Assembly (NCBI RefSeq): GCF_058153355.1
Contig: NZ_CM177019.1
Reading direction: 5' to 3' (one strand)
DNA length: 64,000 bases
The position numbers and the translations under genes are program-made. This document shows positions 52,600 to 53,289 of this stretch, one piece after another (the stretch's first letter is position 1; every line of letters starts with the position of its first letter). The notes under the pieces are model-generated. The model had not been told where the DNA came from and searched no databases. It was given only the letters and a program-made list of their open reading frames with translations.

Positions 52600-53145
52600 T
52601 CACCATTGGTATTGGTTCTTCCGTAGAAGAGCTTCGCGAGATAAGGGGCAAACTTGTTGAGATGCGTCATGGTGTTGCTGCTCCTCACTTTTTGGTTGCT
52701 CCGGAGGAGTAACCTCGTCAGTTAACAGCCACATCGGATCGCAGCCAAGAATATTTGCCAGTGGGATAAGCATACTGATAGTTGGTTCATACTCTCCGCT
52801 CTCCCACTGGATGATGACTTCTTCATCCACATCGAGCAGCCTGGCGAGTTCGGCGGTTGTTAAGCCGCAGGCTTCGCGTTGGGTGCGAATGTGGTTTTGT
52901 GTATTAGTAGCTAAATTCTGTTTGTATGAACGCGTTGATTTAGCTTGTGCTGTCTTAGTGAACTTAATTAAGTGTTTATTAATTGAAGAGCTAATCCTCC
53001 AAGCAATGCTTATGCACGATTCGATTTCGTTGATTTCGCTGCTTGCTTGTGTGATTACGGATGCAATAACTGAGAGTAAATCGCTCAAAATCTGTGATTC
53101 GTCTGTTATGTCAAATAAGTCAAGTTCGCTATTTTGAGTGCTCAT
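52600..53145 (-). CDS. ~181-aa protein with XRE-type helix-turn-helix in its C-terminal half
   Basis: ORF 52600..53178 (TTG) with internal ATG MSTQNSELD...; HTH segment LTTAELARLLDVDEEVIIQWESGEYEPTISMLIPLANILGCDPMWLL. Confidence 0.5.
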   Translation of the reverse strand: MSTQNSELDLFDITDESQILSDLLSVIASVITQASSEINEIESCISIAWRISSSINKHLIKFTKTAQAKSTRSYKQNLATNTQNHIRTQREACGLTTAELARLLDVDEEVIIQWESGEYEPTISMLIPLANILGCDPMWLLTDEVTPPEQPKSEEQQHHDASQQVCPLSREALLRKNQYQW

Positions 53146-53242
53146 AACTTCGCCTGTAACTTTTGTTGCATTAACCAAACGCCATTAACGATAACTAAAG
53201 ATAGTTTTATGGGCAAGAAAAAATTAATGAAAGTTAGTTTGA

Positions 53243-53275
53243 CAGACATAAGAAAACGGCAACCTACTGAATAGA
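53243..53275. terminator. hairpin terminator downstream of the repressor gene
   Basis: AAACGGCAAcctactgaatagaTTGCCGTTTT with U-runs on both strands. Confidence 0.5.
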
Positions 53276-53289
53276 TTGCCGTTTTATAA

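What the first reader, a model, noticed from the sequence alone, without database searches (positions are those of the whole stretch)
52600..53289. HTH protein with unusual architecture in the rex/N position next to the repressor
Immediately downstream of the DicA-like repressor and its hairpin terminator (53243..53275) is a ~181-aa protein whose XRE-type helix-turn-helix lies in the C-terminal half, after a ~100-aa helical N-terminal region and before an acidic/Gln-rich tail. In lambdoid phages this position holds N or exclusion genes such as rexAB and sieB. The protein is not N-like (no Arg-rich motif), so it may be an alternative regulator or exclusion factor.
Basis: partly seen in the sequence, partly recalled or inferred. 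Interest (0 to 1): 0.35.

Follow-up and report, generated by a model that had tools for sequence, protein, structure and literature searches.

The report
Uncharacterised early prophage helix-turn-helix protein
The gene is real and encodes a helix-turn-helix protein of a widespread but unstudied prophage family that sits where lambda keeps its N gene; it is not N, Rex or SieB, and its function remains unknown.

Summary
It has an N-terminal helical hairpin (aa 7-65), a linker, an XRE-type HTH (aa 84-141) and a disordered Gln/Glu-rich tail.

It belongs to the uncharacterised phiP27 "L10" family (PHROG 4739/4836), common in Escherichia and Salmonella lambdoid prophages, including Stx1a and Stx2a phages.

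Operator-like palindromes flank the DicA-like repressor gene, and one lies just upstream of this ORF. The ORF is therefore most likely the first gene of a repressor-controlled PL-type operon. That is the N position, not the rex position.

Three features were not in the finding:
- The left edge of the exchangeable immunity cassette lies inside the gene. The hairpin half tracks the repressor type, and the HTH half is at least 95% identical across types.
- The HTH is unusually acidic (net charge -8).
- The apparent 128-nt gap after the gene holds a conserved antisense gene (phiP27 L09 family, 52452..52712) that overlaps the tail codons.

Function is unknown. My best guess is a dimeric early regulator. 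I found no support for an exclusion role or an N-like role.

The parts
52600..53145 (-). L10-family gene, 181 aa (hairpin, linker, HTH, tail)
   Evidence: ORF list. Full-length match to phrog_4739, E 1.6e-61. The identical protein is in E. coli assemblies. pN/pS is below 0.25 in both halves.
52951..53127 (-). N-terminal helical hairpin (aa 7-65), acidic; the immunity-linked variable module
   Evidence: AF2 helices from 7-34 and from 38 onward. At least 10 sequence types exist. The type is perfectly linked to the repressor type in 82 loci. This type resembles the phiP27 type by hhalign, 93.7%.
52897..52950 (-). Linker (aa 66-83), low model confidence
   Evidence: Segment 57-83 carries net +6. 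pLDDT is below 50 for residues 66-80.
52723..52896 (-). XRE/HTH_3 domain (aa 84-141); nearly invariant across immunity types and strongly acidic
   Evidence: Pfam HTH_3. Foldseek matches P22 c2 at rmsd 0.9 A, 32% identity. 21 invariant columns in 60 family members. Net charge -8, pI 4.2.
52600..52722 (-). Disordered Gln/Glu-rich tail with terminal short helix (aa 142-181 plus stop), encoded antisense to the 3' third of the L09-family gene
   Evidence: AF2. The overlap shows no codon-phase bias, 17/14/19. Tail-less and truncated natural variants exist.
52889..52944 (.). Mosaic junction: left boundary of the exchangeable immunity cassette, inside the gene
   Evidence: DNA identity to five other immunity types jumps from unalignable to at least 95% here.
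53188..53216 (-). Candidate PL-type promoter (TTGCCC, 17-nt spacer, TATCGT)
   Evidence: Read from the sequence. The blocks are conserved in three other E. coli prophages with the same repressor type. The match is 8/12, below the scan tool's threshold, so this is inferred only.
53193..53206 (.). OL1-like operator palindrome AACTATCTTTAGTT, within the spacer and overlapping the first base of the -10 of the candidate promoter
   Evidence: One of only two exact matches to AACTAnCTnTAGTT in 64 kb. 21-nt arm, 81% complementary to the OR site. Shuffle test 1/200.
53226..53239 (.). Second, imperfect operator-like site AACTAACTTTCATT
   Evidence: 2-mismatch match. Conserved block in the type-3 alignment.
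53253..53285 (.). Hairpin terminator after the repressor gene, with T-runs on both strands
   Evidence: -18.8 kcal/mol, z -4.9. Invariant in 4 loci.
53290..53676 (-). DicA-like repressor, 128 aa, no S24 peptidase domain
   Evidence: NCBIfam DicA, 178.5 bits, cutoff 101. Pfam HTH_3.
53722..53735 (.). OR-like operator palindrome AACTAACTGTAGTT between the repressor and cro genes
53773..54012 (+). Cro-like gene (P22_Cro/YdaS type)
   Evidence: Pfam P22_Cro, E 2.1e-19.
52452..52712 (+). Conserved antisense gene (phiP27 L09 family, phrog_6104), 86 aa; fills the apparent gap between L10 and L08 and overlaps both
   Evidence: Full-length phrog_6104 match, E 1e-49. Present in 75 of 98 loci. Variable sites fall 10/4/28 by codon phase, concentrated at its wobble positions. 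GGAG lies 7 nt before the ATG. No known family or structure.
52100..52471 (-). L08-family gene, 123 aa: small N-terminal domain plus C-terminal helical hairpin paralogous to some L10 hairpin types
   Evidence: phrog_5451, E 2e-82. BLASTP to P0070 aa 24-65 gives 43% identity, E 2e-8. hhalign 94.9%. AF2 helices 74-89 and 94-122. Synteny is kept in distant loci.

Best explanation
This is the first gene of the leftward early (PL-type) operon of a lambdoid prophage inserted at yecE. It belongs to the uncharacterised phiP27 L10 family.

Shown:
- It is a real, selected protein built from a helical hairpin, a linker, an XRE HTH and a tail.
- It lies behind a terminator and next to operator-like sites that match the one between the repressor and cro genes.
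- The immunity-cassette boundary runs through the gene. The hairpin half is inherited with the repressor, cro and operators. The HTH half is inherited with the conserved L09-L08 block downstream.

Inferred mechanism:
- In the lysogen the DicA-like repressor occupies OL1 and OL2 and keeps the gene off.
- On induction or infection it is the first PL product.
- It dimerises through the hairpin, giving a four-helix bundle.
- It acts through its paired HTH domains on a target common to all immunity types, so not on the type-specific operators.
- The most likely target is a DNA site in the co-inherited L09-L08 block. There it would tune early-left transcription against the convergent antisense L09 gene.

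It is neither an N-type RNA-binding antiterminator nor a Rex/SieB-type exclusion protein.
For: Family and reality:
- Full-length phrog_4739 match and tblastn hits to phiP27 L10 and PhiR49_2 'L10'.
- 159 relatives at E<=1e-5.
- pN/pS of 0.02-0.21.

Position:
- A terminator closes the repressor transcript.
- The exact palindrome occurs only at 53193-53206 and 53722-53735 in 64 kb.
- Shuffle tests for shared operator-like sequence: 1/200 for this window, 0/300 for phiP27, and 2/200, 7/200 and 13/300 for other immunity types.
- A T-run followed by CTTG(C/A)C is kept upstream of the gene in four divergent types.
- The order cro, repressor, L10, L09 (antisense), L08 is kept even at 30-40% protein identity.

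Mosaic structure:
- The DNA identity step lies at codons 80-90.
- Hairpin type and repressor type are perfectly linked in 82 loci.
- The same repressor and hairpin occur with three other C-terminal versions.

DNA binding:
- The HTH superposes on P22 c2 (rmsd 0.9 A) and 434 Cro.
- It keeps the equivalents of c2 R11, R14 and Q37 (alignment).
- Relatives in the same slot have a canonical, neutral HTH, and some carry tandem HTHs.
- A basic linker precedes the HTH.
Against: - No operator for this protein was found. There are no convincing palindromes in the L10-L08 interval or downstream of L08.
- The HTH is strongly acidic: net -8, family range -3 to -9. Neighbouring repressor N-termini range from +1 to +12, and 434 and P22 c2 from +4 to +6.
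- Its recognition helix begins D-E-E where c2 has S-N-V. Canonical DNA binding is therefore doubtful.
- The candidate PL promoter matches only 8/12 and was not called by the scan.
- Operator sharing is not significant in several immunity types.
- The hairpin-repressor linkage is expected from physical proximity alone and does not prove co-adaptation.
- Dimerisation was not tested. Only a monomer model was made.
- No expression data or literature on the family was found.
Confidence: 0.5

Rival explanations
1. The acidic HTH does not bind DNA. It acts by protein contact, as a decoy, anti-repressor or host-factor binder made first after derepression. The immunity-linked hairpin would give specificity for the cognate repressor or Cro, and the invariant HTH would bind a conserved host or phage protein.
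For: - HTH net charge is -8 and whole-protein pI is 4.7. The recognition helix starts D-E-E, and several c2 basic contact residues are lost (K15E, K16A, K18G, R20T, R40S).
- The hairpin half is inherited with the immunity cassette.
- From established knowledge: XRE-fold domains used for protein contacts exist, for example TP901-1 MOR binding the CI N-terminal domain, the HppE alpha-domain (which appears), and T4 AsiA.
Against: - No partner was identified.
- The hairpin shows no similarity to the cognate repressor.
- Cognate repressors have very different architectures, 128-aa DicA-like versus S24-type of about 220-230 aa, while the hairpins look alike.
- S24-type repressors need no anti-repressor.
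- Some relatives in the same slot have ordinary, neutral HTHs.
Confidence: 0.22
2. It is an N-analogue: an antitermination or polarity-suppression factor for N-less lambdoid phages. It would be loaded at an immunity-specific site through its N-terminal half.
For: - It is the first gene after PL, exactly where N sits.
- Its N-terminal half is part of the immunity cassette. From established knowledge, the boxB-specific N terminus of lambda, 21 and P22 N proteins likewise goes with immunity-region nut sites.
- None of the eight other immunity-region and PL-side ORFs scanned hits an N family.
- A Q antiterminator is present further right.
Against: - There is no Arg-rich motif, and the hairpin is acidic.
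- There is no exact boxA, and near matches are at chance level, 22 observed against 24.8 expected.
- No Rfam element lies in the leader.
- There is no similarity to N, Q, Nun, AlpA or Psu in any library.
- The PL operon is short, about 5 kb to int, and may not need antitermination.
Confidence: 0.08
3. It is the antitoxin or regulator of a toxin-antitoxin or abortive-infection cassette formed with L09 and/or L08, expressed in the lysogen as an exclusion or addiction module in the rex position.
For: - Weak sub-threshold similarity to HTH antitoxin models: HipB-coupled 29.8 bits (cutoff 71.65), MqsA family 29.7 (61.8), spr1629 24.7 (335).
- MqsA-like order, with an N-terminal partner domain followed by a C-terminal HTH.
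- Two small conserved unknown genes are always attached.
- Another prophage repressor locus (paaR2-paaA2-parE2) hosts a TA system (PMC8630535).
Against: - All antitoxin scores are far below their cutoffs.
- PADLOC gives mainly generic HTH-domain hits for L10 and nothing for L08 or L09.
- L08 and L09 have no toxin signature.
- The gene lies behind a terminator and operators, so it should be off in lysogens.
- The putative toxin-binding half (the hairpin) varies while L08 and L09 stay constant, the opposite of what cognate TA pairs show.
Confidence: 0.08
4. SinR/SinI-like pair: L10 oligomerises through its hairpin, and the downstream hairpin protein (L08, or its 66-68-aa hairpin-only form) forms hetero-oligomers that switch L10 off after a delay.
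For: - The L08 C-terminal hairpin is homologous to several L10 hairpin types: 43% identity, E 2e-8; hhalign 94.9% and 59%.
- Hairpin-only versions follow double-HTH L10 genes directly.
- The pair is syntenic across genera.
Against: - In this window the L10 hairpin (type nt3) shows no detectable similarity to its own L08 hairpin: BLASTP finds nothing and hhalign gives 0.1%.
- L08 stays constant while the L10 hairpin changes with immunity type.
- No interaction was modelled or measured.
Confidence: 0.1

Closest known systems
phiP27 L10 (NP_543062) and relatives; PHROG 4739 ('unknown function') and PHROG 4836 ('CII-like regulator')
   Same: Same family. The phrog_4739 match is full length (E 1.6e-61). 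The gene holds the same place directly after the repressor in phiP27, PhiR49_2 and Stx1a/Stx2a phages. The HTH is nearly identical, and L08 follows downstream.
   Different: The N-terminal hairpin is a different sequence type (51% identity over aa 11-146 to phiP27 L10). phiP27 L10 lacks the long tail. No member has been studied experimentally as far as I could find, and I could trace no experimental basis for the 'CII-like' label.
P22 C2, 434 repressor/Cro and DicA (XRE/HTH_3 DNA-binding domains)
   Same: The HTH fold superposes at rmsd 0.9 A on P22 c2 (32% identity), and the sequence passes Pfam HTH_3.
   Different: Here the HTH is C-terminal rather than N-terminal. There is no S24 or other known C-terminal domain. 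Net charge is -8 instead of +4 to +6, and the recognition helix starts D-E-E. It fails the DicA model (45.9 bits, cutoff 101).
Lambda N (and the N proteins of 21 and P22)
   Same: Same map position, as the first gene after a repressor-controlled PL. The N-terminal part belongs to the immunity cassette while the rest is exchangeable.
   Different: No Arg-rich motif, no boxA or boxB, no sequence or fold similarity, and it is an HTH protein.
SinR/SinI of Bacillus subtilis
   Same: An XRE HTH is joined to a helical oligomerisation module, and a neighbouring small protein carries a homologous helical module.
   Different: The domain order is reversed. There is no sequence relationship. In this window the two hairpins are not detectably similar. 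Hetero-association is untested.
MqsA-type antitoxins (N-terminal partner-binding domain plus C-terminal HTH)
   Same: Same domain order, with a weak HTH-level hit (29.7 bits).
   Different: The score is far below the cutoff of 61.8. There is no Zn-ribbon, no identifiable toxin, and the gene lies under phage operator control.
RexAB and SieB (lysogen-expressed exclusion genes next to cI)
   Same: Neighbourhood of the repressor gene only.
   Different: No similarity. The gene is separated from the repressor by a terminator and operators, so it is probably not co-expressed with it. There is no defence-specific signature in PADLOC.

Membership tests
XRE / Pfam HTH_3 (PF01381) domain proteins | Sequence passes the curated HTH_3 model | tested here: met
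   46.6 bits against cutoff 23, aa 86-140.
XRE / Pfam HTH_3 (PF01381) domain proteins | Five-helix cro/C1-type fold | tested here: met
   AF2 pLDDT 80-92 over aa 84-141. Foldseek matches P22 c2 at rmsd 0.9 A and also 434 Cro.
XRE / Pfam HTH_3 (PF01381) domain proteins | Sequence-specific DNA binding | not testable with these tools
   The acidic HTH (-8) with a D-E-E recognition-helix start makes binding uncertain. EMSA or ChIP is needed.
phiP27 L10 family (PHROG 4739) | Full-length profile match | tested here: met
   E 1.6e-61, aa 13-181 against profile positions 10-167 of 167.
phiP27 L10 family (PHROG 4739) | Located directly downstream of the prophage repressor on the same strand, followed by an L08-family gene | tested here: met
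   Window, phiP27 and PhiR49_2, 82 IMG/VR loci and distant loci.
DicA subfamily (NCBIfam NF007257) | Score at or above the curated cutoff | tested here: not met
   45.9 bits against cutoff 101. The neighbouring repressor scores 178.5.
Lambda N-type antiterminators | N-terminal arginine-rich RNA-binding motif | tested here: not met
   The N-terminal 56 aa carry net -8. The only basic stretch is the linker, at +6 over 27 aa. No N family hit.
Lambda N-type antiterminators | nut sites (boxA/boxB) downstream of PL and PR | tested here: not met
   No exact boxA. One-mismatch matches are at chance level, 22 against 24.8 expected. No Rfam element.
Lambda N-type antiterminators | First gene of the PL operon | tested here: met
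   Terminator, then operator-like sites, then candidate promoter, directly upstream. Promoter activity itself is inferred.
Lambda CII-type activators (source of the PHROG 4836 label) | Homology to the CII family | tested here: not met
   No Pfam or NCBIfam hit other than generic HTH models.
Type II antitoxins with an XRE HTH (HipB, MqsA, spr1629) | Score at or above the curated cutoff | tested here: not met
   29.8 against 71.65, 29.7 against 61.8, and 24.7 against 335.
Type II antitoxins with an XRE HTH (HipB, MqsA, spr1629) | Adjacent cognate toxin gene | tested here: inconclusive
   L08 and L09 are conserved neighbours with no match to any toxin or defence model. Toxicity was not testable.
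Rex/SieB-type exclusion systems and known defence systems | Homology to a known defence protein | tested here: not met
   PADLOC returns mainly generic HTH-domain matches (RmrA, HTH_VI, capH; best E 7e-9, HTH region only) plus marginal hits such as ZorA at E 0.004.
Rex/SieB-type exclusion systems and known defence systems | Expression in the lysogen | not testable with these tools
   The sequence argues against it (terminator plus operators), but no transcript data are available.

The most novel reading that the evidence does not exclude
L10, L09 and L08 form a three-gene early cassette that takes the place of N in a large group of N-less lambdoid prophages of Escherichia, Salmonella and Citrobacter. 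L10 would be a two-part adaptor. Its immunity-linked hairpin would read the state of its own switch by contacting the cognate repressor, Cro or an immunity-specific site. Its invariant acidic HTH would act by protein contact on a conserved host or phage target, for example the transcription or termination machinery. The antisense L09 gene, overlapping the L10 tail, would provide convergent-transcription or antisense control of the decision.
Probability: 0.12. Interest if true: 0.65.

Novelty: new variant of a known kind. Interest (0 to 1): 0.4.

Why it matters
Many E. coli prophages lack N, including Stx1a and Stx2a phages and the phiP27 group, and they carry this gene in N's place. Knowing what the first early-left product does would fill a gap in how these phages commit to lytic growth, and so in how Shiga toxin expression is released.

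The gene is also a clean natural example of an immunity-cassette boundary placed at a domain junction inside a protein. In addition, it overlaps a well-conserved gene on the opposite strand that annotation pipelines mostly miss.

None of this is shown to be functionally important yet. As it stands, this is a well-described member of an unstudied family, not a new system.

Tried and rejected
- **Third hairpin protein right of cro.** By eye, the 75-aa leftward ORF at 54134..54361 looked like one. BLASTP against L10 proteins gave nothing, so I dropped it.
- **Hairpin versus repressor C-terminal helices.** No alignment.
- **Window L10 versus window L08.** No alignment. The paralogy holds only for other hairpin types.
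- **Operator for L10 itself.** No inverted repeats were found in the L10-L08 interval. The only one downstream of L08 is an AT-rich 11-nt palindrome at 52080-52104. No target was identified.
- **The 128-nt gap as a regulatory RNA or promoter region.** Rfam found nothing. The conservation is explained by the antisense L09 ORF.
- **Promoter for L09.** A perfect TATAAT lies at 52420-52425 (+), but it is not conserved in distant loci, so I make no claim.
- **boxA/nut search.** At chance level.
- **Tail conservation as evidence of function.** Rejected because of the antisense overlap. Natural variants lose either partner.
- **Literature searches** for phiP27 L10, N-less lambdoid phages, XRE prophage regulators and genes downstream of cI found no characterisation. 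The phiP27 genome paper is not held in the library.
- **Fold search.** The whole model matched only HTH domains.
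Full report
**What is there**

The minus-strand ORF at 52600..53145 encodes 181 aa from an ATG preceded by AGG. Pfam places an HTH_3 domain at aa 86-140 (46.6 bits, cutoff 23).

An AlphaFold2 model built on 60 family members (mean pLDDT 64) gives four parts:
- a helical hairpin, with helices at 7-34 and from 38 onward (the second helix is modelled as continuous to residue 92);
- a low-confidence stretch at 66-80;
- a confident five-helix HTH at 84-141 (pLDDT 80-92);
- a disordered tail at 144-166, ending in a short helix at 170-179.

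The N-terminal region is about 83 aa, not about 100. The hairpin after the repressor stop codon is at 53253..53285, not 53243..53275. It has 15 pairs, a free energy of -18.8 kcal/mol and a z-score of -4.9, and it carries a T-run on both strands.

The upstream 128-aa protein (53290..53676) passes NCBI's DicA model (178.5 bits, cutoff 101) and has no peptidase domain. A P22_Cro/YdaS-type cro gene is divergent at 53773..54012.

The prophage sits at yecE, next to cmoA and cmoB. The identical protein is present in E. coli assemblies.

**Which family**

The protein matches PHROG 4739 ('unknown function') over its full length (E 1.6e-61). It matches PHROG 4836 ('CII-like regulator') over the HTH.

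tblastn and the annotated records show it is the homologue of phiP27 gene L10 and of 'L10' of phage PhiR49_2. It is also the homologue of the 'transcriptional regulator' that directly follows cI in several Stx1a and Stx2a phages.

The protein database holds 159 relatives at E<=1e-5. Where a source names them, they are called only 'helix-turn-helix domain-containing protein' or a similar generic regulator name. One 230-aa variant alone is indexed in 1,920 blocks of the assembly collection.

Nothing characterised shares the architecture. PDB sequence and fold searches match only the HTH, for example P22 c2 at rmsd 0.9 A and 32% identity, and 434 Cro. It fails the DicA model (45.9 against 101) and all antitoxin models. 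PADLOC gives mainly generic HTH-domain hits. Five literature searches found no study of it.

**Position: N, not rex**

The palindrome AACTAnCTnTAGTT occurs exactly only twice in the 64-kb window. One copy lies between the repressor and cro genes (53722-53735). The other lies 47 nt upstream of this ORF (53193-53206). A 2-mismatch copy is at 53226-53239.

The pattern was derived from these two sites, so I ran an independent test. It scored the best shared 16-mer between the two intergenic regions against shuffles, and gave 1/200.

The upstream copy lies within the spacer, and overlaps the first base of the -10, of a candidate promoter: TTGCCC, 17-nt spacer, TATCGT, at 53188..53216. That promoter matches only 8/12. 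Its blocks are nevertheless conserved in three other E. coli prophages with the same repressor type.

The same test is significant or near-significant in five other immunity types: phiP27 0/300, type 5 2/200, L096 7/200, and the Stx2a (13/300) and Stx1a (22/300) phage types. It is not significant in the remaining types tested. Four divergent types keep a T-run followed by CTTG(C/A)C upstream of the gene.

Together with the terminator that closes the repressor transcript, this makes the gene the first cistron of a repressor-controlled PL-type operon. That operon runs on to xis and int. Promoter activity itself is inferred, not shown.

No exact boxA is present and near matches are at chance level. 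No Rfam element lies in the leader. None of the eight other immunity-region and PL-side ORFs scanned hits an N family.

**A mosaic junction inside the gene**

I compared 82 related loci from IMG/VR together with annotated phages. The hairpin sequence type is perfectly linked to the type of the upstream repressor, with six types among the loci. At least ten hairpin types exist in the protein database.

DNA identity between types is unalignable from the repressor through codon 80 or so. It then steps to at least 95% at window 52889-52944, which is the hairpin/HTH junction. The right edge of the same cassette is at the start of the Rha-like gene, near 55150.

The same repressor and hairpin are found joined to three other C-terminal versions: 149 aa, 152 aa, and a 229-aa form with two HTHs.

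Both halves are under purifying selection within types: pN/pS is 0.02-0.21 for the hairpin and 0.13-0.21 for the HTH.

The linkage itself is expected from proximity within non-homologous DNA. It shows that the hairpin is part of the immunity cassette. It does not show that the hairpin is co-adapted to it.

**An atypically acidic HTH**

The HTH carries a net charge of -8 (pI 4.2), and the family ranges from -3 to -9. The N-terminal 70 aa of the neighbouring repressors range from +1 to +12.

In the HMMER alignment to c2, the start of the recognition helix reads D-E-E where c2 has S-N-V. Five basic c2 positions are lost, while the equivalents of R11, R14 and Q37 are kept. The linker before the HTH is basic (+6).

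Relatives at 30-40% identity keep the whole architecture and the synteny. At least one of these loci is from Salmonella enterica subsp. diarizonae. They show three HTH subtypes: two acidic and one ordinary and neutral (recognition helix ITMQAVSLWESN). Tandem combinations of subtypes also occur.

I read this as a DNA-binding lineage in which the version found here has drifted to an unusual surface. Whether it still binds DNA cannot be decided with these tools.

**The gap is a gene**

The 128 nt between this ORF and the next gene (L08 family, 52100..52471) are far better conserved than the flanking proteins, even in distant loci.

They are the core of a plus-strand ORF at 52452..52712 (86 aa, with GGAG 7 nt before the ATG). 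This ORF matches PHROG 6104 over its full length (E 1e-49) and corresponds to phiP27 L09. It is present in 75 of 98 loci.

Variable sites, counted by codon phase, tell the two genes apart:

| Region | Phase counts | Reading |
|---|---|---|
| Non-overlapping part of the gap | 10/4/28 | Peak at the wobble position of the plus-strand ORF |
| L10 HTH | 26/45/12 | Peak at L10's wobble position |
| 110-nt overlap with the L10 tail | 17/14/19 | No phase bias |

L09 is therefore a real gene, convergent with L10 and overlapping its tail codons. The conserved tail motif (QQHH..SREAL) cannot be credited to L10 alone.

Natural variants lose either partner. Five loci have a truncated tail with L09 intact, and twelve have a full tail with no L09 start.

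L09 has no hit in Pfam, NCBIfam, PADLOC or PDB. It is annotated only sporadically, as 'hypothetical', in E. coli, E. albertii, Salmonella and Citrobacter.

**L08**

L08 is 123 aa (phrog_5451). It has a small, low-confidence N-terminal domain and a C-terminal helical hairpin.

That hairpin is homologous to some L10 hairpin types: 43% identity and E 2e-8 to P0070, and hhalign 94.9%. It is not detectably similar to the hairpin type in this window.

Hairpin-only forms of 66-68 aa follow tail-less L10 genes, most of them the double-HTH form.

**Most likely mechanism**

Two things are shown. The protein is real, selected and modular. It lies behind a terminator and next to operator-like sites.

The rest is inferred. 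The gene is silent in the lysogen and is the first PL product after derepression. The protein dimerises through the hairpin. It acts through paired HTHs on a target shared by all immunity types, most simply a DNA site in the co-inherited L09-L08 block. There it would balance leftward early transcription against the convergent L09 gene.

I put this at about 0.5. The main rival, at 0.22, is that the acidic HTH works by protein contact. Smaller rivals are a SinR/SinI-like pairing with L08 (0.10), an N-analogue (0.08) and a TA or exclusion cassette (0.08).

**Verdict**

The gene is a member of an already catalogued but unstudied family. I rate it a new variant of a known kind (an XRE-type phage regulator) and of moderate interest. 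The interest comes from three things: the family occupies N's place in many Stx-related prophages, the immunity boundary falls inside the gene, and there is a hidden antisense gene.

Noticed in passing
window 52452-52712 (+): A conserved 86-aa gene (phiP27 L09 family, phrog_6104) lies antisense between L10 and L08. It overlaps the L08 start and the last ~37 codons of L10. Codon-phase analysis shows it is protein-coding. Annotation pipelines mostly miss it, and it matches no known family.
   Followed up: yes
window 52100-52471 (-): The L08-family gene has a C-terminal helical hairpin that is paralogous to several N-terminal hairpin types of L10 proteins, though not to the type in this window. 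Hairpin-only forms of 66-68 aa exist in other prophages.
   Followed up: partly
window 56836-58049 (+): Three tandem units, each with an isrK-like RNA and a P1/P7-type C4 antisense RNA, all above the Rfam gathering scores. They sit among Rha/Ash-type antirepressor-like ORFs. Together with a repressor that lacks a peptidase domain, this suggests antirepressor-driven induction under antisense-RNA control.
   Followed up: no
window 56076-56724 (-): A TumE-family ORF (95 aa) and an HVO_A0114-type winged-helix ORF form a probable toxin-antitoxin-like pair. They lie on the opposite strand inside the early-right region (Pfam labels from the identical locus).
   Followed up: no
window 47644-48952 (-): The integrase is split into two overlapping ORFs: 187 aa with the Arm-DNA-binding domain, and 262 aa with the catalytic domain. 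A related prophage at the same yecE site has one 437-aa gene. This is a probable frameshift, so the prophage may be unable to excise.
   Followed up: partly
window 53253-53285: The terminator hairpin after the repressor gene has A-runs and T-runs on both sides. It could stop both the leftward repressor transcript and any rightward transcript coming from L09 through L10.
   Followed up: partly
window 51146-51551 (-): Two small PL-operon genes in this stretch: a 71-aa Rem-like protein (PF27490, weak; phrog_340) and a 72-aa protein labelled ParE_like (PF24732) in the identical locus. A basic 130-aa protein (phrog_1886) follows at 50757-51149. None has a known function.
   Followed up: no
window 63218-63528 (+): A cluster of four tRNA genes (Met-CAT, Arg-TCT, Thr-TGT, Gly-TCC) lies in the prophage's late-regulatory side, as in many Stx-type phages. 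A second cluster (Gly, Cys, Leu) at 7772-8073 is chromosomal.
   Followed up: no
literature: PMC8951638 (BMC Genomics 2022); loci L085 and L086: That paper describes an atypical 'clade VIII CI' of Stx phages with two HTH_3 domains and no peptidase domain. The double-HTH L10 proteins, which sit directly downstream of a normal S24-type cI in Stx1a and Stx2a phages, have exactly that architecture. Those 'CI' proteins may be L10-family members. I did not check this against their accessions.
   Followed up: partly
proteins P0149, P0161, P0154, P0188: The representative search returned very long proteins (up to 2,332 aa) made of 8-12 tandem HTH units related to this one. Their origin and function are unknown.
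   Followed up: no
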